A stretch of DNA of 35,624 nucleotides from a virus (taxonomy: Duplodnaviria > Heunggongvirae > Uroviricota > Caudoviricetes), in IMG/VR virus record IMGVR_UViG_2778261544_000009. The stretch is one strand, 5' to 3'. A program made the translations under genes and the position numbers. A model generated the notes under the pieces. That model saw nothing but the letters and a program-made list of their open reading frames with translations, did not search any database and was not told the origin of the DNA. Shown here piece after piece: positions 968 to 34,851 of the stretch; within the stretch, counting starts at the first letter, position 1, and every line of letters starts with the position of its first letter.

Positions 968-3055
968 ATGTTTGTGTCTGTCAACGAACTCGTGGGGCTG
1001 CCTGGTATGCCGGGAAGTGCGCAAGGTGTGAGGTACACTATAAAAAAATTGGCCTCATCAGAGCATTTTCGACGCAAACGAGCAGGTACAAAAGCCATTG
1101 AGTACCACATTGATTGTCTGCCGGAAGCGACTCAAAAGGCGCTGCGTGAACGTTATGTGGAACAACTGGTAGCTACGGAGCACAACGTTTCCGAAGTTCA
1201 GGTCGTTACCAGGAAGGCGCGCAATCCTGATGCTGTCCAGGCAATCGAAGCATATCGCGGTTCGCCACAACTGATGGAAGAACGCCTGAATGCACTGACC
1301 GAAAATCAGCGTCGGGTATCTGAAGCAAGGGCTGCGCTGGTGGTGGAAGTGCTGAAGCTGGAAAGCGACGGTAATCTCGGGCGGCTGAAAGCCATTAACT
1401 ATCTTGTCGAAAAAGCCCGTAAAGGTGAACTACCGGAACGCCTGCAACAGGCCGCAGTTAACGCCAATGCAAAACGTGGCGCTAATCGCACCATCAGTCG
1501 TGACCCGCTTTATCAGTGGGTGCTGAAGTACAACCAGTCACTGAACGCCGCAGAACGGCTGCTGTTACTGGCACCAGGAAAACGCGACGAAATAAAACCG
1601 GAACAAATTAGCTGGCTACCTGAGTTTCTGGCGCAGTATCGCCAGGTGAATGGCAGACCTATGTCTGAAGCCTACGAGGATTTTGTCGCAGAATGGCAGC
1701 GTCGCCATGCGGACGAACCGTACATGCTGGAGGTGATGCCTTCTTACGATGTGGTTCGTTATGCCATGAAGAAATTGCCGGAAGTGGTGAAACAAAAAGG
1801 ACGCGTTACCGGCAGTGAATACCGTCAGCTTGAAGGATTCACCCGTCGCGACTGGACAGCTATGCCGGTGAATTATGTGTGGATTGGTGACGGTCACGGT
1901 ATGAAGCTGAAATGTGCGCATCCGATCCACGGGCGTCCATTCTCACCGGAAGTCACATTTGTGATCGACGGTGGAACACGGTTTGTTGTTGGCTGGAGTC
2001 TTGACCTTGCCGAGAACGTGTTCGCCGTTGCCGGTGCGATACAGCACGGCATTCGCAACCACGGAAAACCGTTTCTGTATTACTCGGATAATGGTTCTGG
2101 TGAAACGGCTGACATGCTGGACAAAGAGGTCGTAGGTATTCTGCCCCGCCTGGGGATTAAACACCCTACCGGTATTGCCGGTAATCCACAGGGGCGCGGC
2201 ATTATTGAACGCCTGAACCGGACACTGCCGATGCGTATAGCCAGGAGGTATCGCACCTATTTTGGCAAGGGTGCTGACCGGGAGTCGTTGCGTGTACTTA
2301 ACCGTGATCTGCGTTCAGCGTTTAACGCCATGCAACAGGACAAGCCTCTGAACGACCGCCAGAAAGCTGCAATGCGCGAGCTACCATCGTGGGCAGAGCT
2401 TATTGAGGCTATTCGTGAAGGCGTGGAATGGTACAACAACCGCCCGCATTCTGAGCTGCCGATGAAACCGAACGGGCGGCATTACAGCCCGGCAGAGTTC
2501 AGAAAAAAACGCCTGGCAGAAGAAGACACCGAAATTGAGTGGCTGAGTGATCTTGAGCTGCGTGACATGTTCCGCCCGATGGTGGAACGCCCGGTAAGAC
2601 GGTGCGAAATTCAGTGGCTGAACAATATTTACTACGCGCCGGAGTTGCGTGACGAACACGGTCGCAAAGTGCTTATCAGTTATGACATTCATGACGCCGA
2701 GCGAATTACGGTACGTCGCAAGGACGGTAGCTTTATCTGTGAGGCGATATGGAACGGCAATAAACGCGCAGCCTTTGCTGTCAGTGCTGAATATCACAAA
2801 CAACAGCAGCGTATTAAAGGAATGCGCAAACGTGCTGAGGAAAAAATTCGTGATGCTGAGGATGAAGGCATTCAGATTCTGGAGCACAAACAGACTGAAC
2901 CCTGGCTGGATAATGTTTATCGCCCGGTTGGTAATACGGTAACCATCCAGCAACAGGATTATGAGGAGGATTACGACGAAGATTATGAACGCGATTTCAG
3001 GCTGGGTTTGCAGAAACTTGCAGCCATACAGGAACAGGATGATCCGCTGGCCTGA
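968..3055 (+). CDS. A: DDE transposase A (MuA-like)
   Basis: 695 aa; N-terminal ELVGLPGMPGSAQGV winged-helix-like motif, central VWIGDGHG catalytic block, acidic C-terminus. Followed immediately by the B ATPase. Confidence 0.93.
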   Translation: MFVSVNELVGLPGMPGSAQGVRYTIKKLASSEHFRRKRAGTKAIEYHIDCLPEATQKALRERYVEQLVATEHNVSEVQVVTRKARNPDAVQAIEAYRGSPQLMEERLNALTENQRRVSEARAALVVEVLKLESDGNLGRLKAINYLVEKARKGELPERLQQAAVNANAKRGANRTISRDPLYQWVLKYNQSLNAAERLLLLAPGKRDEIKPEQISWLPEFLAQYRQVNGRPMSEAYEDFVAEWQRRHADEPYMLEVMPSYDVVRYAMKKLPEVVKQKGRVTGSEYRQLEGFTRRDWTAMPVNYVWIGDGHGMKLKCAHPIHGRPFSPEVTFVIDGGTRFVVGWSLDLAENVFAVAGAIQHGIRNHGKPFLYYSDNGSGETADMLDKEVVGILPRLGIKHPTGIAGNPQGRGIIERLNRTLPMRIARRYRTYFGKGADRESLRVLNRDLRSAFNAMQQDKPLNDRQKAAMRELPSWAELIEAIREGVEWYNNRPHSELPMKPNGRHYSPAEFRKKRLAEEDTEIEWLSDLELRDMFRPMVERPVRRCEIQWLNNIYYAPELRDEHGRKVLISYDIHDAERITVRRKDGSFICEAIWNGNKRAAFAVSAEYHKQQQRIKGMRKRAEEKIRDAEDEGIQILEHKQTEPWLDNVYRPVGNTVTIQQQDYEEDYDEDYERDFRLGLQKLAAIQEQDDPLA

Positions 3056-3129: not shown

Positions 3130-4062
3130 ATGACCGATATTAATGATGTTTTCAATACGATTAATGCGCTGATTTCCGACGGCGTAAAAACTCAGGGTGT
3201 TATTGCTAAAGAAGCGGGCGTGTCAGAGGCCACGCTATCGGAACTTCGCAAAGGTCGTTACAAAGGCGATACCGAAGGGATGCATGACAAATTACAGATG
3301 TGGCATCAGGACTGGCTGAAAAGCCAGGAATTGCCAGGCGCGCCGCAACTTGTGGAAACACAAACCCTCCGTGATTTGCGCGAGCTGTTTCAGACCGTGC
3401 GTGTTATGGGATGTATCAGCGTTCTGGTTGGTGTGCCGGGTGTTGGTAAAACCGTTGCGGCCCGCGAATACAGTAACCGTGTATCTAATACCTGGATGGT
3501 GACCCTTTCCCCTGCACACTCAACAGTGACCGAGTGTCTGCTGGAACTGGCAGACGCACTGGGAATTGATAACCCGCAAAGGAGTAAAGGCGCGCTGACC
3601 CGTGCCATTCGCAAAAAACTGAACGGCACACGCGGTCTGGTGATTGTGGATGAAGCTGACCATCTGAGCATGGACGGGCTGGAGCAGTTGCGCGCCATTC
3701 AGGATGCAACAGGCGTCGGGATGGTATTGATTGGTAACCCAAGCCAGTTAGCCAAAGCCACACACCGGGGAACGGATGACCTTGCGCGTTTGTTCAGCCG
3801 TTTCGCCAGAACAAAACAACTGCGTAAAGCCAAAAAGGCTGATGTGGTGGCAATTGCGAAAGCCTGGGGCATTGAGGGTGAAGATGAATTATCACTCATG
3901 CAGAGCATAGCGGAAAAACCAGGTGCATTACGTGTATTAACTCATACGTTGAATCAGGCATGGCTGGCAGCCAGCGGGAAAGGTGTTCCGTTATCCAAAG
4001 GCTACATTAAAGCGGCTTTTAAAGAGGTTTACAGCAACCCGAAGTTACTGAACTGGTGGTAA
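3130..4062 (+). CDS. B: Transposition ATPase B (MuB-like AAA+)
   Basis: 310 aa with Walker A GVPGVGKT and Walker B VIVDEADHL; sits directly after the transposase. Confidence 0.9.
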   Translation: MTDINDVFNTINALISDGVKTQGVIAKEAGVSEATLSELRKGRYKGDTEGMHDKLQMWHQDWLKSQELPGAPQLVETQTLRDLRELFQTVRVMGCISVLVGVPGVGKTVAAREYSNRVSNTWMVTLSPAHSTVTECLLELADALGIDNPQRSKGALTRAIRKKLNGTRGLVIVDEADHLSMDGLEQLRAIQDATGVGMVLIGNPSQLAKATHRGTDDLARLFSRFARTKQLRKAKKADVVAIAKAWGIEGEDELSLMQSIAEKPGALRVLTHTLNQAWLAASGKGVPLSKGYIKAAFKEVYSNPKLLNWW

Positions 4063-19378: not shown

Positions 19379-19544
19379 GCCAGCGCGGGAAAGCGTTCGT
19401 GTCCGTAAACCGGATGGCGCGCATTTATCCCCGGAAGGGGAACGTCTCGACGTCTGCGCTTACTGGCTGCGCCGTGAAGCCGAGGGAGATGTGGAAATAA
19501 CCACACTTCCGAAAAATAACAACAAAACCAGAGGGAAAAAATAA
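19359..19544 (+). CDS. Small hypothetical protein
   Basis: Short ORF ending at the tail sheath start; start uncertain (19344 or 19359). Confidence 0.35.
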   Translation: MEQKLIKPARESVRVRKPDGAHLSPEGERLDVCAYWLRREAEGDVEITTLPKNNNKTRGKK

Positions 19545-21019
19545 TGTCGCTGGGTTCAATTCCTGATGATATCCGCGTCCCGCTTGTCTGGATCGATATC
19601 GACAATTCACAGGCGCTGGATGGTGCATCCGCGCAAAGCCGAAAAATTCTGGTCATGGGCCATGCGGTATCGTCCGGCAGCGCAGACGCCCTGTCACTGA
19701 CCCGCATCACCAGTGACAGCCAGGCAGACCAGCTTTATGGCAAAGGGTCGATGCTGGCTGAAATGCTCAAAATGCTGCGCCGTGCCAACACGTACACGGA
19801 AACCTGGGCAATGCCGGTTGCCGCGCCAGAAGGCGCTGCCGCAAAAGCCACGCTGACCGTGCTGGGTACAGCGACTGAAGCCGGAACGGTGGCGCTGCTG
19901 ATTAACGGTGTTTCCGTTCAGGTGAGCGTGAGCGCCGGGGACACGAAGGAAAACATTGCAAAAGCCATTGCTGATGCGGTGACGAAAAAGCCTGCCACGC
20001 AGGTGGCCGCTGCGGTGAAGGATGATGCCACGGATACCGTGGAGCTGACCGTGAACTGGCACGGCGTCACCGGCAACGGTGCCGACGTTCGCCTGAACTA
20101 CTACACCGGAGAAGCCTTCCCGGCAGGTGTAAAGGTGACAGCCACCGCGTTTACCGGCGGCACCGGGACACCGGAAATGGCGGATGCCGTTGCGGCCATC
20201 GGCCCGGAGTGGTTTACCGATATCATCGCCCCGTTCACCGACACGCAAAGCCTGAACACCCTGCGTGATGAACTGCTGAACCGCTGGGGGCCGCTCAAAA
20301 TGATGGAGGCGCAGCTGTGGACGGCGTTTCGTGGCACGCACGGCGAGACAGGCACGTTTGGTGAAACCCGCAATGACTGGCTGATTAGCTGTATTGGCAC
20401 CAACCTGTCACCGCACCCGGCGTGGATGTGGGCCGCGTCATACGGCGCAACGGCAGCGTATCACCTTGCCATTGACCCGGCGCGTCCGCTTCAGACGCTG
20501 GTCCTGACCGGCATTCTGCCGCCTGCGCGTAATGTTCGCTGGGATATGCCGGAACGTAACCTGCTGCTGCATGACGGCATTGCCACGCACATGGTGGACG
20601 CCGGGGATAACGTCTGCATAGAGCGTGAAATCACCATGTACCGGGTTAACCAGTACGGTGATGCGGATGTGTCGTACCTTGATGTGCAGTCACCCGCCAC
20701 GCTGGGCCGTATCCGTTACATCATCAAAAACCGTTTCACGAACCGTTATCCGCGCCACAAGCTGGCGGATGATGACGTGCTGGACTCACTGGATGCCGGT
20801 CAGCCGGTGATGACGCCGAAGCTGTGCACCGCAGAGCTGCTGGATATCTGCCAGACCGAACTTATCCCGGCAGGCCTTGTGGAGAACTTCAGCGATTACA
20901 AGGACACGCTTCAGGTGACACGCGACAGCAGCGATAAAAACCGCCTGAACTTTATCTGCCACCCGAATCTGGTGAACCAGCTGCGTGTGCTGGCAGGCCT
21001 GATTCAGTTCAAACTTTAA
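19544..21019 (+). CDS. Tail sheath protein (Mu L-like)
   Basis: 491 aa immediately upstream of the tube gene; GAGGGA RBS. Confidence 0.8.
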   Translation: MSLGSIPDDIRVPLVWIDIDNSQALDGASAQSRKILVMGHAVSSGSADALSLTRITSDSQADQLYGKGSMLAEMLKMLRRANTYTETWAMPVAAPEGAAAKATLTVLGTATEAGTVALLINGVSVQVSVSAGDTKENIAKAIADAVTKKPATQVAAAVKDDATDTVELTVNWHGVTGNGADVRLNYYTGEAFPAGVKVTATAFTGGTGTPEMADAVAAIGPEWFTDIIAPFTDTQSLNTLRDELLNRWGPLKMMEAQLWTAFRGTHGETGTFGETRNDWLISCIGTNLSPHPAWMWAASYGATAAYHLAIDPARPLQTLVLTGILPPARNVRWDMPERNLLLHDGIATHMVDAGDNVCIEREITMYRVNQYGDADVSYLDVQSPATLGRIRYIIKNRFTNRYPRHKLADDDVLDSLDAGQPVMTPKLCTAELLDICQTELIPAGLVENFSDYKDTLQVTRDSSDKNRLNFICHPNLVNQLRVLAGLIQFKL

Positions 21020-21028
21020 GGGGGCCGC

Positions 21029-21385
21029 ATGGCAAAAATTCTTGGCATGGCGACCATTCGCGTGAATGGCCGCGAAATTAAAACCGAGGGGAAATCCACG
21101 CTGAACCCGGGCGGCTTCAGCCGCACCCAGCATATGGGCGGCGGCAAGGTCTGGGGTATCTCCAGCAAGATGGCCTCGCCGTCCATCAAGGTGACCATTG
21201 CGGCGGCTGCGGATATGGACGTGATTGAAATCAGCAGCTGGGAAGACGTCACGGTGATGTTCTACGGCGACAACGGCCTGAACTACATGATGACAGGTTC
21301 AGCCACGGATAACCCGGCGGAGCTGGACGAGGATTCCGGCACCATCAGTGCCAACTTTATCGGTGAAAAATGCGTGAAGGTGTGA
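21029..21385 (+). CDS. Tail tube protein (Mu M-like)
   Basis: 118 aa directly after the sheath gene. Confidence 0.7.
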   Translation: MAKILGMATIRVNGREIKTEGKSTLNPGGFSRTQHMGGGKVWGISSKMASPSIKVTIAAAADMDVIEISSWEDVTVMFYGDNGLNYMMTGSATDNPAELDEDSGTISANFIGEKCVKV

Positions 21386-21386
21386 C

Positions 21387-21782
21387 ATGGCTGAAATGGA
21401 ATTTGAACTGAAACACGGGCTTCTGACCGGCAAAGGCACGGCAGATGAAACCCTGCATAAAACCGTGAAGCTGCGCGAGCTGACCGCCAGTGATGTGATT
21501 GATGCGCAACTGGCCGCAGAACGCGTCGTCATGGGCGAGAACGGAAAGGCGGTGGCCTACTGTTCTGAAGTGCTGATGGGGCTGGAGATGATGCGCCGTC
21601 AGGTTGCGGCCATCGGCAACATTCCCGGCCCACTGGACATGAAACAGCTGCGAATGCTCCACCCGGCAGACCTTGAGCTTATCAGCACGAAAGCCGCCGC
21701 GCTGGATGAGATGCTTGAGGAGGTGGCAACGCGGGGGCGAACTGATGCCGCTGGCGGCGGCACTGATGAACCTGCTGGTTAA
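21387..21782 (+). CDS. Tail assembly chaperone (G-like), probably with a frameshifted extension to 21882
   Basis: Located between tube and tape measure. An overlapping ORF in the +1 frame (21673-21882) ends inside the start of the tape measure gene. Confidence 0.65.
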   Translation: MAEMEFELKHGLLTGKGTADETLHKTVKLRELTASDVIDAQLAAERVVMGENGKAVAYCSEVLMGLEMMRRQVAAIGNIPGPLDMKQLRMLHPADLELISTKAAALDEMLEEVATRGRTDAAGGGTDEPAG

Positions 21783-21868
21783 CCTTTCTCAGCGATTCAG
21801 TATTCAGTACCTGGAACAGCTGCCCCTGCGGCAGCTGTTCCGCCTGATAAAGCAACTGGAGAAACAAC

Positions 21869-23716
21869 ATGGCAACAGGTAACCGTCTCAGCACGGAAAT
21901 CATGATCAACCTTGCCGGGAACCTGACCGCCAAAGCCCGGCAGTACGGCGCAAATATGTCGCAGTTCGCCCGGAACCATCAGAAGGCCATGCGCCTTGTC
22001 AAAGCCACAACGGAGGCCGCAGGACGCGGCCTTGATACGCTGGGTAACCGCTATACGGCAATGATAGCCGGGCTTGGCAGTAGCCTTACCATCAAACAGG
22101 TTGCCGATTTTGATGCGCAGATGCGCCGGATGGGTACGGATGCCCAGTTAACCACTGAACAGGTAAAGACGCTTCACGACAAAATCAGGGATGTATCGAA
22201 CCAGAAAGATATTCGTATTGATGCTTCTGCGCTTGGTCAGGGGGCCAGCGAACTTCTGGGGAAAACCGGTGATTATCAGTATGTGGTGGACAACCTCCGC
22301 AACATGGGGTTGATGATGCAGGCGTTCGGTGTTGACGGACAGGTTGCAGCCGGGCTGATGGCCCAGTTCTGGGAAAAAAACGTCCGGGGCGCTGATGCGG
22401 TCAGTAACATGATGGACAGGCTGTATTCGCAGTTCGCAGTGGGGTCTGTAAGCGTTGCCGATGTTGCCCGCGCTGCCCCGAAACTGTTTTCCATCATTCA
22501 GGATCAGGGACCGGAAGCCATTGCCCAGATGGGGGCATTTGCTCAGGTGTTCACCAAAAACAAAGGTAGCATTGATGAGACGGTAACCAGTATTCAGGCC
22601 ATGTATGCCTCCCTGTCGGACAAAAAGAACATCGAGTTTCTGAAAAAAAACGGCGTTGATGTTTTTGTCAAAGGCACAAAAGACATCAAAAAGCCCTATG
22701 AACTGATGATGGAAATCCTTAAACGGGCCAAATACGACCCGCTGAAACTTCAGGATGTGTTTGATCTGACCGGAATGCAGGGGATTAAGGCGCTGCTTAA
22801 CCCTGAAAACCGACAACTGATGGAACAAATGATTTACGGCACGATTGATCTGGGTTCCACGCAAAAGGCCGCACAGACCAATGCCGAAGGCTTTAATGCT
22901 GCAATGCAATCACTGAATAACGAATGGCAACGTTTTGCTGAAGGACAACTGGCAAAGCCCGTTCAGGACCTGGCGGATGCGCTCAACAGCGTGGACCAGA
23001 ACACTGTCCAGAACTGGTTGCAGGTCGGTAAATATATGGCGATTGCGCTGGGTGGCATTATCGCCATCAGAAAGACGTATCAGTTCGGTAAAACCATCCA
23101 CGACATCATGAATCCCAAAGGGAAAGGCAAAGGGATACCCGGTGGCATTACGGATGTTTTCGGCTCCGGTGTGATGCCGGTTTATGTGGTTAATATGGGC
23201 AGTGGCGGGATGAATGGTAATACCGGCGGTCTGCCGGATGCGCCGGATTCATCGCGCAATCCCCGCAATCCTCGGGGTCCGGGTAACCGTGGAGGAAAGG
23301 CAGGTAAAGGCGCTGGCATCATTGCCGGTGCTCTGGAATTTTACGATTTTCTGACCACGCAATACGCCCTGCCGGGTGAGGTTCACAGTCTCACTAAATC
23401 CGTTGCCGGTGATGCCAGCGCCAGCCCGTGGGAGCGCGAGTTCGCACAACAAAGCCAGGACAACCAGAAAGCACTGGAATCCGTCTGGCGTAAGGTAACA
23501 GACTGGTTCAATTCGCTTGGTGATAAGAACATTGCCGACCCGCGACCGTGGGCAGGTATGCAACCCACACAGAATTATCCTTTCCTTCCGCAGCAGTTGC
23601 AGGGGGAAATCCGTGTGGTGGTGGAAGGTGACGCCCGCGTGAAAAGTGTCAGAGTGGATCAACCCGGCGTCAGACTCAGTGCGCAGGCTGGCGTCACCAG
23701 CGTGGAGCAAGGGTAA
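21869..23716 (+). CDS. Tail tape measure protein
   Basis: 615 aa, A/Q-rich and predicted helical, with a Gly-rich C-terminus; downstream of the chaperone pair. Confidence 0.8.
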   Translation: MATGNRLSTEIMINLAGNLTAKARQYGANMSQFARNHQKAMRLVKATTEAAGRGLDTLGNRYTAMIAGLGSSLTIKQVADFDAQMRRMGTDAQLTTEQVKTLHDKIRDVSNQKDIRIDASALGQGASELLGKTGDYQYVVDNLRNMGLMMQAFGVDGQVAAGLMAQFWEKNVRGADAVSNMMDRLYSQFAVGSVSVADVARAAPKLFSIIQDQGPEAIAQMGAFAQVFTKNKGSIDETVTSIQAMYASLSDKKNIEFLKKNGVDVFVKGTKDIKKPYELMMEILKRAKYDPLKLQDVFDLTGMQGIKALLNPENRQLMEQMIYGTIDLGSTQKAAQTNAEGFNAAMQSLNNEWQRFAEGQLAKPVQDLADALNSVDQNTVQNWLQVGKYMAIALGGIIAIRKTYQFGKTIHDIMNPKGKGKGIPGGITDVFGSGVMPVYVVNMGSGGMNGNTGGLPDAPDSSRNPRNPRGPGNRGGKAGKGAGIIAGALEFYDFLTTQYALPGEVHSLTKSVAGDASASPWEREFAQQSQDNQKALESVWRKVTDWFNSLGDKNIADPRPWAGMQPTQNYPFLPQQLQGEIRVVVEGDARVKSVRVDQPGVRLSAQAGVTSVEQG

Positions 23717-24990
23717 TGACAACGAGCAAAGGCAAATGGGACGGGCTGCGCGATGCCTCGTTTCGCGGCGTCCCCTTCTTTCTGGTGGATACGGAAGGCA
23801 CCGGTGGCCGTCGTGCCATTCCCCGTGCGTATCCCCGGCGCGAAACCGCCTGGACGGATGATAACGGGGCCGTTCCGGGGCAACAGCAGATTAACGCAAA
23901 GCTGCTGGGTAAAAACTTCCAGGATGATTTAAACGCCCTTTTAGACGCGCTCAATATCCCCGGCCCCGGCGAGCTTATCCACCCGTGGTTCGGGATACAG
24001 ACCGTACAGGTTGGCAAGGTCACCCATCGCCTCAGCACGGAGGAAGACGGCATTGCGTATGTCACTTTTGAAGTGTTTGAGGCAGGCGAGCGCCTGTTCC
24101 CGTCTGCGGCGGATAACACGCAGCAGGAAGTGCTGACGGGCATTGATGCGGTGAAAGCCGCCATTGAAGATGGCGACTGGTTCGGCGCACTCGACGGGCT
24201 GGGTGAGATGGCCGACAGCTTTCTGGCCGATATGGAAAACCTTGTGGCTAACCTGCCCACGCTACCGGCAGCACTGAATCAGTGGATGGACAGGCTGAAC
24301 CATTTTAAGGAGATGGCCGGAACCATCATTGCCACACCGGGGCGTCTGGTCAGTGAGCTGTCCTCGTTCATCGACGGCGTGGTTGATCTGGTGACGGAAC
24401 CACCCGAAGCACTGGCGGTTTACACGACATTACGCAACCAGTGGGCCGGAGAACGTGCCCGACAGGTTGCCACCGGCGCACTGCCGGAAGATATCACCGT
24501 GAAGCCCGGCAGCGTGGCAGACGGTGAAATAGGCTTTGCTATCGGGCTGTCACCGGATTATCAGCCGGTATCTGACAGCCTGCAGAAGAACATTGACGAC
24601 TTCCGCCAGGTGGTTGTGCTGGAAACCCTGCTGGGACAGGCAAATGCCGTGGCCTCGATGACGTTCGATACCAGTGATGCGGCATTATCTGCCGGTGACA
24701 CGCTGGCGGCTGAACTGCATGAGCAGGCGGTGGCGGCGGTGGAAAATAACCAGCGGGCATTGTGGCGAACGCTGCGCGATTTACGGCAGGCCGTGATTAC
24801 GGATGCCCGCGAGCGTGCCGCCCGTCTGCCGGAAACCCGGCAGGTGACGCTGACCACAACCACATCTGCCGCATTGCTGGCATGGCGCGAGCATGGTGAC
24901 ACCAGCCGACGGGATGAAATCGTGCAGCGTAACCGCCTGCGCCATCCGTCATTCATTCTGCCGACGCAACCTGTGGAGATTACCGACTGA
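23716..24990 (+). CDS. DNA circularization protein N-like tail protein
   Basis: 424-aa ORF following the tape measure, as in Mu; assigned by position. Confidence 0.6.
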   Translation: MTTSKGKWDGLRDASFRGVPFFLVDTEGTGGRRAIPRAYPRRETAWTDDNGAVPGQQQINAKLLGKNFQDDLNALLDALNIPGPGELIHPWFGIQTVQVGKVTHRLSTEEDGIAYVTFEVFEAGERLFPSAADNTQQEVLTGIDAVKAAIEDGDWFGALDGLGEMADSFLADMENLVANLPTLPAALNQWMDRLNHFKEMAGTIIATPGRLVSELSSFIDGVVDLVTEPPEALAVYTTLRNQWAGERARQVATGALPEDITVKPGSVADGEIGFAIGLSPDYQPVSDSLQKNIDDFRQVVVLETLLGQANAVASMTFDTSDAALSAGDTLAAELHEQAVAAVENNQRALWRTLRDLRQAVITDARERAARLPETRQVTLTTTTSAALLAWREHGDTSRRDEIVQRNRLRHPSFILPTQPVEITD

Positions 24991-26060
24991 TGGAATCCGT
25001 GATTCTTACCGTTGACGGCAAACTGTGGGAAGGCTGGACGGAAATGTCCATCAGCCGTTCCCTGAAGGCGATTGCCGGTGAGTTTGATCTCAGTGTGACA
25101 ACCCGCTGGTCAGCGGCGGCACCGCGCGTGATTCGTGAGGGGCAACCCTGCACGGTCAGGCTGGGCGCGGATACCGTGCTGACGGGGTATATTGATGATT
25201 TTATCCCCAGCTATGACGCAGATAACGTGGAGATCCGCGTCATGGGGCGCGACAAAACCGGTGACCTGGTGGACTGCTCTGTGGTGCATTCATCCGGGAA
25301 ATGGAAAGGCGTGCGGCTTGAACAGGTGGCGGCTGATGTCTGCCGCCCGTTCGGGATAACCGTCATCACGGAAACCCCGACCGGGGAGGCGTTTGCGTCC
25401 GTTGTTCTGGAACAGGGTGAAACGGGCTTTGAACTGCTCGACCGGCTGGCAAAACAGCGCGGCGTTCTGCTGACGTCTGACGGCGCAGGTAACCTGATTA
25501 TCACCCGCGCCTCTTCCGTTCGCGCGGGTGTGTCACTGGTGCTGGGGAAAAATATCCTCGCTGCCCGTGGGCGCTTCAGCTGGCGGGAGCGTAACAGCCA
25601 GTACATCATCAAGGGCACCACCAGTGCCGGTGGCAAACTGTGGGACAGCCAACCTGCCTCGATGGTGGGTGGTCGCCAGTACATCACCGAAGACCCGGAA
25701 ATTAACCGTTACCGCCCGCGCATTCTGGTCAATGAAGACAGCCTGACCGTGGGCGGGGCCAGCATTCGCGGGGAATGGTACAAAGCCCGGATGCTGGGGG
25801 AATCCCGCACGACGGAAATCACGGTGGCAGGCTGGCGCGAACAGGGCGACAGCGGCCCGCTGTGGCAGACCAACCGCCTTGTCGATATCGACGACAGCAT
25901 TCAGAACCTGAAAACCACCTGGCTGATATCCGGGGTGACCTGGACGGATGGCGCACAGGGGCGGATGACGGTTCTGGCGCTGGTTCCACCTGAATCACTG
26001 GACATGCCGGAAATGAAAGCGAAGACGAAGAAAACAAAGGCGGTGGCCACATGGGATTAA
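24990..26060 (+). CDS. Baseplate/tail protein (Mu P-like)
   Basis: 356 aa in the baseplate block. Confidence 0.6.
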   Translation: MESVILTVDGKLWEGWTEMSISRSLKAIAGEFDLSVTTRWSAAAPRVIREGQPCTVRLGADTVLTGYIDDFIPSYDADNVEIRVMGRDKTGDLVDCSVVHSSGKWKGVRLEQVAADVCRPFGITVITETPTGEAFASVVLEQGETGFELLDRLAKQRGVLLTSDGAGNLIITRASSVRAGVSLVLGKNILAARGRFSWRERNSQYIIKGTTSAGGKLWDSQPASMVGGRQYITEDPEINRYRPRILVNEDSLTVGGASIRGEWYKARMLGESRTTEITVAGWREQGDSGPLWQTNRLVDIDDSIQNLKTTWLISGVTWTDGAQGRMTVLALVPPESLDMPEMKAKTKKTKAVATWD

Positions 26061-34019: not shown

Positions 34020-34205
34020 ATGGACTCTGTTCGCTGTAAAAACTGCAATAAATTACTGTTTAAAGGAGGTTTTAAGCATATAGAAATTAAATGCCCTCGC
34101 TGTAAACGTTACATTGTCATATCGAATGCCAAAGAGCATCCCACGGAGCTGTATTGTGGGAAAAGAGAAGAAATCACGCATTCTGACAAAACCCTGCGTT
34201 ATTGA
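34020..34205 (+). CDS. com: Com zinc-finger translational activator of mom
   Basis: 61 aa, CKNCNKLLF...CPRCKR zinc finger ending ...[10 protein letters not shown]; AGGGGGA RBS. An alternative ATG lies at 33993. Confidence 0.85.
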
Positions 34206-34851
34206 GTATGAAGGCCGGATTGTCGGCTATGGTTCAAAGGAGCTGCGCGTTGAAACCATATCCTGCTGGCTGGCCCGCACAATCATTCAGACAAAACACT
34301 ATTCCCGCCGTTTTGTGAATAACTCCTACCTGCATTTGGGCGTATTCAGCGGACGTGATCTGGTTGGTGTTCTTCAGTGGGGATATGCCCTTAACCCCAG
34401 CTCAGGGCGTCGTGTTGTGCTGGAAACGGATAACCGGGGCTATATGGAACTGAACCGCATGTGGCTACACGACGACATGCCCCGCAATTCTGAATCACGG
34501 GCCATCAGCTACGCGCTGAAAACCATCAGGTTACTGTACCCGTCAGTGGAGTGGGTTCAGTCCTTTGCAGACGAACGCTGCGGACGTGCTGGCATGGTAT
34601 ATCAGGCGTCGAATTTTGATTTTATAGGCAGCCACGAAAGCACGTTCTACGAACTGGACGGCGAGTGGTATCACGAGATAACGATGAACGCGATTAAGCG
34701 CGGAGGACAACGAGGCGAGTATTTACGGGCTAATAAGGAGCGGGCCGTGGTACACAAATTTAATCAGTATCGCTACATCAGATTCCTGAACAAGCGCGCA
34801 AAAAAGCGCCTAAACACTAAGCTATTCAGGGTTCAGCCATACCCGAAGTGA
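34126..34851 (+). CDS. mom: Mom DNA-modification protein
   Basis: Overlaps the 3' end of com, as in Mu. Start uncertain: TTG at 34114, ATG at 34126, or GTG at 34156. Confidence 0.8.

What the first reader, a model, noticed from the sequence alone, without database searches (positions are those of the whole stretch)
21700..21882. Probable -2/+1 programmed frameshift in the tail assembly chaperone
The chaperone ORF (21,387-21,782) is overlapped by a +1-frame ORF that runs to 21,882, inside the start of the tape measure gene, which is the lambda G/GT arrangement. The run CGGGGGC at 21,732-21,738 lies in the overlap; a -2 slip on GGG_GGG would read ...GGELMPLAAALMNLL... A -2 shift has been described for Mu, to my recollection. 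The alternative is independent initiation at the ATG at 21,745.
Basis: partly seen in the sequence, partly recalled or inferred. Interest (0 to 1): 0.5.

Follow-up and report, generated by a model that had tools for sequence, protein, structure and literature searches.

The report
Mu-type -2 frameshift in tail chaperone
This E. coli Mu-like prophage carries the same rare "slip back two bases" signal that phage Mu uses to make a longer second form of its tail assembly chaperone; the mechanism is already known, but the longer product is not annotated for this prophage lineage.

Summary
The window is a complete Mu-like prophage. ORF 21387-21782 is a Gp41_Mu tail assembly chaperone lying between the tail tube and tape measure genes. 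Its codons CGG_GGG_CGA (21732-21740) match, base for base and in the same phase, the site in phage Mu gene 41, whose GenBank record cites a verified -2 frameshift (Xu et al. 2004).

All 149 related loci fetched keep GGGGGCGA in phase. Across 87 distinct coding sequences the three codons are CGG 86/AGG 1, GGG 87 and CGA 87, whereas other invariant Gly and Arg positions use 4-6 synonymous codons. Third-codon-position variation switches from frame 0 to frame +1 exactly at the motif. The ATG at 21745 is not conserved, and Mu has no start codon there.

The predicted product is a 165-aa fusion of the chaperone and a 48-aa extension, ending at 21882, 14 nt inside the tape measure gene.

Two corrections apply:
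- The run has five Gs, not six.
- The junction residue (Gly or Arg) depends on the slip model.

This is a new member of a known kind. No fused version of this protein is in the protein collection searched, and the 45-aa ORF is filed as "hypothetical protein" on more than 1000 contigs.

I also noticed a conserved upstream Shine-Dalgarno-like element that Mu lacks. It may stimulate the shift.

The parts
21029..21385 (+). Tail tube gene (context, immediately upstream)
   Evidence: Pfam Tail_tube PF10618, E 4e-38. RefSeq annotates the equivalent gene as 'phage tail tube protein'.
21387..21782 (+). Zero-frame tail assembly chaperone ORF (131 aa, gp41-like; the analogue of lambda G)
   Evidence: Pfam Gp41_Mu PF23746, E 8.6e-38, and Phage_TAC_7. 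PHROG 508 'tail assembly chaperone'. The exact sequence is deposited as E. coli 'phage tail assembly protein'.
21718..21724 (+). Internal Shine-Dalgarno-like AGGAGGT, a candidate 5' stimulator (inferred, not shown)
   Evidence: GGAGGTGG is the strongest anti-SD binder within +/-1.5 kb (dG -13.8). No start codon lies 5-13 nt downstream. At the equivalent codon, synonymous choice is fixed across the family: GAG 58 to GAA 0, AAG 7, CAG 9, GGG 7. It lies 8 nt before the GG_GGG_CGA motif and 10 nt before the P-site GGG.
21732..21740 (+). Shift site CGG_GGG_CGA (core GG_GGG_CGA, 21733-21740)
   Evidence: Identical and in the same phase as the Mu gene 41 site. Invariant in 87 distinct coding sequences from 149 loci, while other invariant Gly and Arg codons vary freely. 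The literature places the Mu -2 slip on GG_GGG_CGA (PMC3458567).
21736..21882 (+). +1-frame extension of 48 aa (GELMPLAAALMNLLVNLSQRFSIQYLEQLPLRQLFRLIKQLEKQHGNR) plus the TAA stop; the analogue of lambda T
   Evidence: The open frame, its 48-52-aa length and the LP[LI]R motif are conserved in 14 representative lineages. Third-position variation follows this frame from the motif onward. It matches PHROG 38797 (E 4e-35). The fused product is join(21387..21737,21736..21882) or join(21387..21740,21739..21882), 165 aa either way.
21745..21747 (+). ATG in the +1 frame, the start of the 45-aa ORF that pipelines annotate as 'hypothetical protein' (rival start)
   Evidence: The 45-aa sequence is deposited on more than 1000 contigs. 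A start codon at this position is absent in Mu, L003, L004, L005 and L008.
21746..21762 (+). GC-rich hairpin UGCCGCU-GGC-GGCGGCA, starting 5 nt after CGA; a candidate 3' stimulator (weak evidence)
   Evidence: dG -10.9 kcal/mol, z -2.08, with 12 of 200 shuffles folding as well. The core GCCG/CGGC is kept in 31 of 32 distinct enterobacterial sequences, but there are no compensatory double changes in the core. It is not found in Mu or the Vibrio lineages.
21869..23716 (+). Tape measure gene (context); its start overlaps the end of the extension by 14 nt
   Evidence: ORF. RefSeq annotates the 96.6%-identical E. coli locus as 'phage tail tape measure protein'.

Best explanation
This is a Mu-type programmed -2 ribosomal frameshift in the tail assembly chaperone gene of an E. 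coli Mu-like prophage.

Most ribosomes read 21387-21782 in frame and make the 131-aa chaperone. A minority slip two bases backwards when GGG (21735-21737) is in the P site and the poorly decoded CGA (21738-21740) is in the A site. The Gly-tRNA re-pairs on the GGG at 21733-21735, which is possible because the preceding Arg codon ends in GG. Those ribosomes continue in the +1 frame to the TAA at 21880-21882. The result is a 165-aa protein: the chaperone domain fused to a 48-aa C-terminal extension.

By analogy with lambda gpG/gpGT, both forms would coat the tape measure protein. The rarer extended form would recruit the tail tube subunit. Neither would end up in the virion.

What is shown here: family membership, gene order, the identical site, nucleotide-level selection on the site, and protein-coding selection on the +1 frame beginning at the site.

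What is inferred: that the shift occurs in this phage, that it is -2 rather than +1 (from Mu), its efficiency, and the role of the extension.

What is hypothesised: the upstream AGGAGGT (21718-21724) and the downstream hairpin (21746-21762) stimulate the shift, in the way the SD and stem-loop of dnaX do.
For: Family and gene order:
- Gp41_Mu domain (E 8.6e-38), with sheath, tube, chaperone, tape measure, DNA-circularisation and hub genes in Mu order.

The site in Mu:
- Phage Mu (AF083977) has GAA CGG GGG CGA in the same phase.
- Its record carries the CDS Mu_56, 'verified -2 translational frameshift in PMID 15469818'.
- Reviews state that Mu uses -2 frameshifting and that the slip is on GG_GGG_CGA (PMC5009743; PMC3458567).

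Conservation of the motif:
- All 125 + 24 loci found by protein similarity keep GGGGGCGA in phase. These span 41-99% identity and include E. coli, Klebsiella, Vibrio, Shewanella, Alteromonadaceae and Pasteurella phages.
- The flanking codons vary freely.

Internal control:
- In 87 distinct coding sequences, other invariant Gly columns use GGT, GGC, GGG and GGA.
- Other invariant Arg columns use 5-6 codons.
- The site itself is CGG 86/AGG 1, GGG 87 and CGA 87.
- A change of CGA to AGA would be silent in both frames, yet it is never seen.
- The upstream Arg is restricted to the two Arg codons that end in GG. A backward re-pairing needs this; a +1 slip does not.

Switch of coding frame:
- The most variable codon position is frame-0 position 3 upstream of the motif (0.49-0.52).
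- It is frame +1 position 3 downstream (0.42-0.53, against 0.09-0.11 at position 2), including inside the overlap.

Limits on where the shift can occur:
- In some relatives the +1 frame opens only 6 nt before the G-run (L005, L060, L069).
- In others the zero-frame stop lies 11 nt after the first G (L003, L005, L123).
- This confines the shift to about 17 nt.

The two C-terminal ends:
- The zero-frame tail after RGR varies in length (1-16 aa after the RGR Arg; listed as 2-17 in the and 49 tables, which count that Arg) and in sequence.
- The extension keeps a length of 48-52 aa and the LP[LI]R motif in 14 representative lineages.

Other frames:
- A -1 slip would meet a TGA at 21743-21745.

SD-like element:
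- Its spacing, 8-10 nt before the site, is at or near the 9-14 nt range reported for backward shifts, not the 3 nt reported for +1 (PMC5009743 section 36).
Against: - There is no experimental evidence for this phage. The direction of the shift and its occurrence rest on homology to Mu.
- I could not read Xu et al. 2004 or Baranov et al. 2006, so details of the Mu experiment come second-hand from a GenBank note and two reviews.
- In this lineage an ATG (21745) sits 7 nt after the GGGGG run, which could act as a ribosome-binding site. Some independent initiation cannot be excluded.
- Homology of the extension to Mu's extension is only weakly supported (hhalign probability 16%, P 0.0016).
- The candidate stimulators are unproven. 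The hairpin is barely better than shuffles (z -2.08) and shows no compensatory changes. The SD-like element overlaps a partly conserved Glu/Val pair and is absent in Mu, where the shift nevertheless occurs.
Confidence: 0.88

Rival explanations
1. A +1 ribosomal frameshift at the same site. The P-site Gly-tRNA moves from GGG (21735-21737) to GGC (21736-21738) while the slow CGA codon waits in the A site. The fusion would be 164 aa (...TRG-ELMPL...).
For: This reaches the same frame. CGA is a poorly decoded codon (established knowledge), and such codons favour P-site slippage. The product length differs by only one residue.
Against: - The Mu homologue is annotated and reviewed as -2.
- The preceding Arg codon is restricted to NGG in 87 of 87 sequences, which a +1 slip does not need.
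- The SD-like element lies 8-10 nt upstream, not the 3 nt typical of +1 sites.
- Neither deposited form of the Mu fused protein is the +1 form.
Confidence: 0.05
2. There is no frameshift. The extension is a separate 45-aa gene, translated from the ATG at 21745, with the GGGGG run 7 nt upstream as its ribosome-binding site. Current pipelines annotate it this way.
For: An ATG with a G-rich stretch at good spacing is present. The 45-aa ORF is deposited as 'hypothetical protein' on more than 1000 contigs. An ATG or GTG at or next to this position recurs in the enterobacterial, Alteromonadaceae and Pasteurella lineages.
Against: - There is no start codon at or near this position in Mu, L003, L004, L005, L008 or L123. 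Mu has none at all until a TTG 87 nt downstream of the first G of the run.
- This model does not explain the invariance of CGA, the NGG Arg codon or the phase of the motif.
- In Mu the fused protein is the verified product.
Confidence: 0.04
3. Transcriptional slippage on the G5 run. RNA polymerase deletes one G or adds two, and standard translation of the edited mRNA gives the fusion.
For: This would reach the same frame and give the same proteins as the +1 or the P-site -2 models.
Against: - Known productive bacterial slippage needs long A or T runs, about 9 (PMC5009743). Five Gs is short.
- It does not explain the invariant CGA after the run or the upstream SD-like element.
Confidence: 0.02

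Closest known systems
Phage Mu gp41 / FS-gp41 (Mu_41 / Mu_56; UniProt P0DJY4), the -2 frameshift of Xu, Hendrix and Duda 2004
   Same: - Same Pfam family (Gp41_Mu).
- Same position between the tube and tape measure genes.
- Identical CGG_GGG_CGA in the same phase.
- A +1-frame extension of about 50 aa (48 here, 51 in Mu) with an LPL motif near the end.

   Different: - Only 50% identity over the aligned chaperone domain (43% in the alignment).
- The extension is barely alignable with Mu's (17% identity in the 14-sequence alignment; hhalign probability 16%).
- The extension ends 14 nt inside the tape measure gene here, but 14 nt before it in Mu.
- This lineage has a perfect AGGAGGT 8 nt upstream of the motif and a GC hairpin 5 nt downstream. 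Mu lacks both.
- An ATG lies in the new frame 4 nt after CGA; Mu has none.
Lambda gpG/gpGT and P2 gpE/gpE+E' tail assembly chaperones
   Same: [quoted passage not shown] Pfam Phage_TAC_7, which groups E, 41 and 14, also matches.
   Different: Those use -1 slippage on an X_XXY_YYZ heptamer. Here the -1 frame hits a TGA at 21743-21745, and the conserved frame is +1/-2. I tested no sequence similarity to lambda G.
E. coli dnaX frameshift signal (SD, slippery site, stem-loop)
   Same: The layout is similar: an internal SD-like element 8-10 nt upstream, a slip site, and a hairpin 5 nt downstream. Stimulatory SDs for backward shifts lie 9-14 nt upstream (PMC5009743).
   Different: dnaX shifts -1 on A_AAA_AAG at about 50% efficiency. 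Here the shift is -2 on GG_GGG_CGA, and the flanking elements are untested. This is a resemblance in architecture only.
Arterivirus nsp2TF and Trichomonas vaginalis virus 1 -2 frameshifts
   Same: They are natural -2 ribosomal frameshifts (PMC5009743; PMC3622925).
   Different: They are eukaryotic RNA viruses with different slip sequences, different stimulators and unrelated proteins.

Membership tests
Mu gp41-type tail assembly chaperone with -2 frameshift | Gp41_Mu chaperone domain | tested here: met
   PF23746, E 8.6e-38, covering residues 8-118 and the full model. PHROG 508.
Mu gp41-type tail assembly chaperone with -2 frameshift | The gene lies between the tail tube and tape measure genes of a Mu-like contractile tail module | tested here: met
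   The order sheath, tube, chaperone, tape measure, DNA-circularisation protein, gp44-like hub.
Mu gp41-type tail assembly chaperone with -2 frameshift | GG_GGG_CGA near the 3' end, with GGG and CGA as zero-frame codons | tested here: met
   21733-21740, in the same phase as Mu. Invariant in 87 distinct coding sequences.
Mu gp41-type tail assembly chaperone with -2 frameshift | A +1/-2-frame ORF of about 50 codons with no conserved start of its own, ending at the tape measure gene start | tested here: met
   48 codons ending at 21882. The length is 48-52 in 14 representative lineages. Coding periodicity switches at the motif.
Mu gp41-type tail assembly chaperone with -2 frameshift | The extension is homologous to the Mu extension | tested here: inconclusive
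   The alignment is colinear with a shared LP[LI] motif. hhalign gives P 0.0016 but only 16% probability. The two fall in different PHROGs, 38797 and 12783.
Mu gp41-type tail assembly chaperone with -2 frameshift | The fused protein is actually made, by a -2 and not a +1 shift | not testable with these tools
   Only indirect support: the Mu annotation, the NGG restriction of the upstream Arg codon and the SD spacing.
Lambda G/GT-type -1 frameshift chaperone | An X_XXY_YYZ heptamer giving access to an open -1 frame | tested here: not met
   The -1 frame stops at the TGA at 21743-21745 and is open only from 21770 to 21847. The gene works like G/GT but does not use the -1 mechanism.
dnaX-like SD-stimulated backward frameshift | An internal SD-like sequence 9-14 nt 5' of the shift site that serves no start codon | tested here: met
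   AGGAGGT at 21718-21724, 8 nt before the motif and 10 nt before the P-site codon, so at the short edge of the reported range. No start codon follows within 5-13 nt. Synonymous codon choice is fixed across the family. The stimulatory effect itself is untested.
dnaX-like SD-stimulated backward frameshift | A stable 3' stem-loop about 5-8 nt after the shift site, supported by covariation | tested here: inconclusive
   A hairpin is present (dG -10.9, z -2.08). Its core is invariant with no compensatory changes. It is absent outside the enterobacterial clade.

The most novel reading that the evidence does not exclude
In most of the Gp41_Mu family, though not in Mu itself, the -2 site may be part of a three-part, dnaX-like signal. 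The parts would be an internal Shine-Dalgarno-like element 8-10 nt upstream, the GG_GGG_CGA slip site and, in the enterobacterial clade, a GC hairpin 5 nt downstream.

The upstream element is a perfect AGGAGGU in this window. Across lineages it is held in place at synonymous sites: Glu is always GAG, Lys AAG and Gly GGG.

If this is right, it would be a natural case of rRNA-mRNA pairing that stimulates a -2 shift. Mu, which lacks the element, and this prophage, which has it, would then form a ready-made comparison. As far as I could find, this has not been described. However, I could not read Xu et al. 2004 or Baranov et al. 2006.
Probability: 0.3. Interest if true: 0.5.

Novelty: new member of a known kind. 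Interest (0 to 1): 0.3.

Why it matters
The practical value is a correct annotation. This prophage family occurs in 51 of 5426 complete E. coli genomes. RefSeq lists only the 131-aa chaperone for it. The 45-aa remnant of the extension is filed as 'hypothetical protein' on more than 1000 E. coli, Shigella and Salmonella contigs, and no fused product is deposited.

There is also value for studying the mechanism. Natural -2 frameshifts are rare. The family gives dozens of natural variants with an invariant 8-nt core and variable flanks, some with and some without an upstream SD-like element. That could be used to dissect how a -2 slip is set up in bacteria.

The finding does not change what is known about tail assembly.

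Tried and rejected
- Megablast of the tube-to-tape-measure region against the phage collection found nothing. A protein-level search was needed.
- The genome-contig scan with the chaperone found no relatives.
- Xu et al. 2004 and Baranov et al. 2006 are not held. A search for 'GGG CGA' with 'phage Mu' found no paper.
- Rfam gave no frameshift element in 21300-22100; the only hit was a chance EBER2 match at E 1.8.
- The PDB sequence search with the chaperone profile gave only a spurious hit. NCBIfam gave no model for the fused protein or the tape measure protein.
- A downstream RNA structure conserved across the whole family was not found. Z-scores ranged from -1.9 to +1.4 outside one lineage, L122 (z -6.5).
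- The TTG at 21673 is rejected as the start of a 69-aa +1-frame ORF. The +1 frame upstream of the G-run is closed in close relatives (L060 has a stop 6 nt upstream), and the variation there follows frame 0.
- A -1 shift is rejected because it meets a TGA two codons later.
- I did not run a structure prediction.
Full report
**What is in the sequence.**
- The window is a complete Mu-like transposable prophage. It encodes a Mu transposase, MuB, Mu-type portal, gpF, the gpT major head protein, a contractile tail module, baseplate, tail fibre and Mom.
- The tail module runs: sheath 19544-21019, tube 21029-21385, ORF 21387-21782 (131 aa), a 615-aa ORF 21869-23716, DNA-circularisation protein 23716-24990 and a gp44-like hub 24990-26060.
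- RefSeq annotates the 615-aa ORF as a tape measure protein in a 96.6%-identical E. coli locus.
- The 131-aa ORF is a full-length Gp41_Mu tail assembly chaperone (PF23746, E 8.6e-38; it also matches Phage_TAC_7).

- The zero-frame codons are ACG CGG GGG CGA, at 21729-21740.
- The +1 frame is open from 21643 to the TAA at 21880-21882, and it overlaps the tape measure ATG (21869) by 14 nt.
- An ATG in the +1 frame lies at 21745.
- One correction: the run has five Gs, not six.

**Comparison with Mu.**
- Phage Mu (AF083977) has GAA CGG GGG CGA GTG in gene 41, in the same phase. A +1-frame ORF follows that ends 14 nt before the tape measure gene.
- Atkins et al. 2016 list Mu among the users of -2 frameshifting (PMC5009743).
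- Lin et al. 2012 state that tandem -2 slippage occurs on GG GGG CGA. In their account the A-site tRNA-Arg (anticodon ICG) re-pairs better in the -2 frame than in the -1 frame (PMC3458567).
- I could not obtain Xu et al. 2004 or Baranov et al. 2006.
- The Mu fused protein is deposited in two forms that differ at the junction. GenBank UIW09302.1 reads ...ERGG-EWL..., and UniProt P0DJY4 reads ...ERGR-EWL.... The junction residue predicted for this window (G or R) is therefore uncertain in the same way. Both forms give 165 aa.

**Conservation.**
- Protein-level searches brought in eight phage records: Mu, Klebsiella Kp4866-3, two Vibrio phages, a Shewanella phage, Alteromonadaceae B23, Pasteurella Pmp9 and a Mu-like insert in an Stx phage. 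They also brought in 139 IMG/VR loci and one RefSeq E. coli locus.
- Every locus has GGGGGCGA in phase near the end of the chaperone ORF. There are 54 distinct sequence contexts in the first 125 loci, plus 15 more in the next 24. The codons on either side vary freely.
- An internal control shows that this is selection on the nucleotides, not on the protein. In 87 distinct coding sequences, other invariant Gly columns use all four Gly codons (for example GGT 31, GGC 28, GGG 25, GGA 3). Other invariant Arg columns use five or six codons. The site itself is CGG 86/AGG 1, GGG 87 and CGA 87.
- A change of CGA to AGA would be silent in both frames, yet it is never seen.
- The upstream Arg is restricted to the two Arg codons that end in GG. 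A backward re-pairing of the Gly-tRNA needs this; a +1 slip does not.

**Which frame is translated.**
- In 72 distinct sequences of the enterobacterial clade, anchored on the motif, the most variable codon position upstream is frame-0 position 3 (0.49-0.52).
- From the motif onward, including inside the overlap, the pattern follows the +1 frame. Position 3 is 0.42-0.53 and position 2 is 0.09-0.11 in the extension, and frame-0 position 3 becomes the least variable.
- The zero-frame tail after RGR varies in length (1 to 16 residues after the RGR Arg) and in sequence. The extension keeps 48-52 residues and an LP[LI]R..L motif in 14 representative lineages.
- In some relatives the +1 frame opens only 6 nt before the G-run, and in others the zero-frame stop lies 11 nt after its first G. 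This confines the frame change to about 17 nt around the motif.
- A -1 slip would meet a TGA at 21743-21745.

**Rival explanations.**
- *Independent initiation at 21745.* This is how pipelines treat the region. The 45-aa ORF is deposited as 'hypothetical protein' on more than 1000 contigs. RefSeq annotates only the 131-aa protein and leaves a gap before the tape measure gene. None of the three possible fused sequences is in the protein collection searched. However, a start codon at that position is missing in Mu, both Vibrio lineages, Shewanella, the Stx-phage insert and others. This model also explains neither the invariant CGA nor the NGG Arg codon.
- *An upstream TTG start at 21673.* This is excluded because the +1 frame there is closed in close relatives, and the variation there follows frame 0.
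- *A +1 slip.* This reaches the same frame but does not fit the Mu annotation, the NGG restriction or the SD spacing.
- *Transcriptional slippage.* This is unlikely on five Gs and does not explain the CGA (for the usual requirement of long A or T runs).

**Candidate stimulators (noticed here, unproven).**
- AGGAGGT lies at 21718-21724, 8 nt before the motif and 10 nt before the P-site GGG. No start codon follows that it could serve.
- GGAGGTGG is the strongest anti-SD binder within +/-1.5 kb (dG -13.8).
- An SD-like element sits at the same offset in 23 of 25 representative lineages. It is missing only in Mu and its closest relative, L008.
- At the corresponding codon, synonymous choice is fixed: Glu GAG 58 to GAA 0 (gene-wide GAG fraction 0.48), Lys AAG 7 to 0, Gln CAG 9 to 0 and Gly GGG 7 to 0. 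The preceding codon ends in G in 69 of 87 sequences.
- Stimulatory SD elements lie 9-14 nt upstream of -1 sites and 3 nt upstream of +1 sites (PMC5009743 section 36). The spacing here is close to the range for a backward shift.
- Downstream, a hairpin at 21746-21762 (dG -10.9, z -2.08) starts 5 nt after CGA.
- Its GCCG/CGGC core is kept in 31 of 32 distinct enterobacterial sequences, and synonymous variation is roughly halved in that stretch. However, there are no compensatory changes in the core, and dual coding could explain the same pattern.
- The hairpin is absent in Mu and the marine lineages.
- Lin et al. 2012 found that -2 shifting is favoured by spacers 1-2 nt shorter than the optimum for -1. 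That is compatible with the hairpin having a role but proves nothing here.

**Verdict.**
- It is a new, unannotated member of a kind known since 2004, not a new mechanism.
- The modest added interest is the conserved SD-like element that Mu lacks.
- No Rfam family, solved structure or NCBIfam model covers the element or the fused protein.

Noticed in passing
window 21718-21724: A perfect internal Shine-Dalgarno core, AGGAGGT, lies 8 nt upstream of the slip motif and serves no start codon. The equivalent position is SD-like in 23 of 25 lineages, and synonymous codons there are fixed (GAG 58 to GAA 0). It is absent only in Mu and L008.
   Followed up: yes
window 21746-21762: A GC-rich hairpin starts 5 nt after CGA (dG -10.9, z -2.08). 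Its core is invariant in the enterobacterial clade but shows no compensatory changes. One relative (L122) has a much stronger 13-bp hairpin at the same place (z -6.5).
   Followed up: partly
window 21745-21882; L044 2740-2825: The 45-aa ORF from the 21745 ATG is deposited as a stand-alone 'hypothetical protein' on more than 1000 E. coli, Shigella and Salmonella contigs. RefSeq leaves the stretch unannotated in NZ_CP115984. No fused product of this lineage is in the protein collection searched.
   Followed up: yes
L001 (phage Mu AF083977) 1426-1990: The Mu frameshift product is deposited in two versions that differ at the junction residue: GenBank UIW09302.1 reads ...ERGG-EWL and UniProt P0DJY4 reads ...ERGR-EWL. 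These correspond to P-site-only and tandem -2 slip models.
   Followed up: partly
window 1-35624: The window is a complete Mu-like transposable prophage: MuA-like transposase 968-3055, MuB 3130-4062, Mu portal, gpT head protein, tail, baseplate, and Mom at 34114-34851. The tail region matches 51 of 5426 complete E. coli genomes at 95-99% identity for most, but has no megablast match in the phage collection.
   Followed up: partly
window 2243-2249: A second perfect AGGAGGT lies inside a gene, the MuA-like transposase ORF 968-3055. The window has six copies in all, every one on the + strand, against about 2 expected. Three lie 13-14 nt upstream of an ORF start listed (6369, 10860, 18767); one (34064-34070) lies upstream of the Mom ORF, 50 nt before the start listed for it.
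   Followed up: no
window 21700-21800: In the 101-nt minimum-energy fold, the SD-like GAGGAGG pairs with a pyrimidine stretch just past the zero-frame stop (the ...CCUUUCUC stretch near 21783-21790). The overall z-score is only -1.77, so this may be chance.
   Followed up: no
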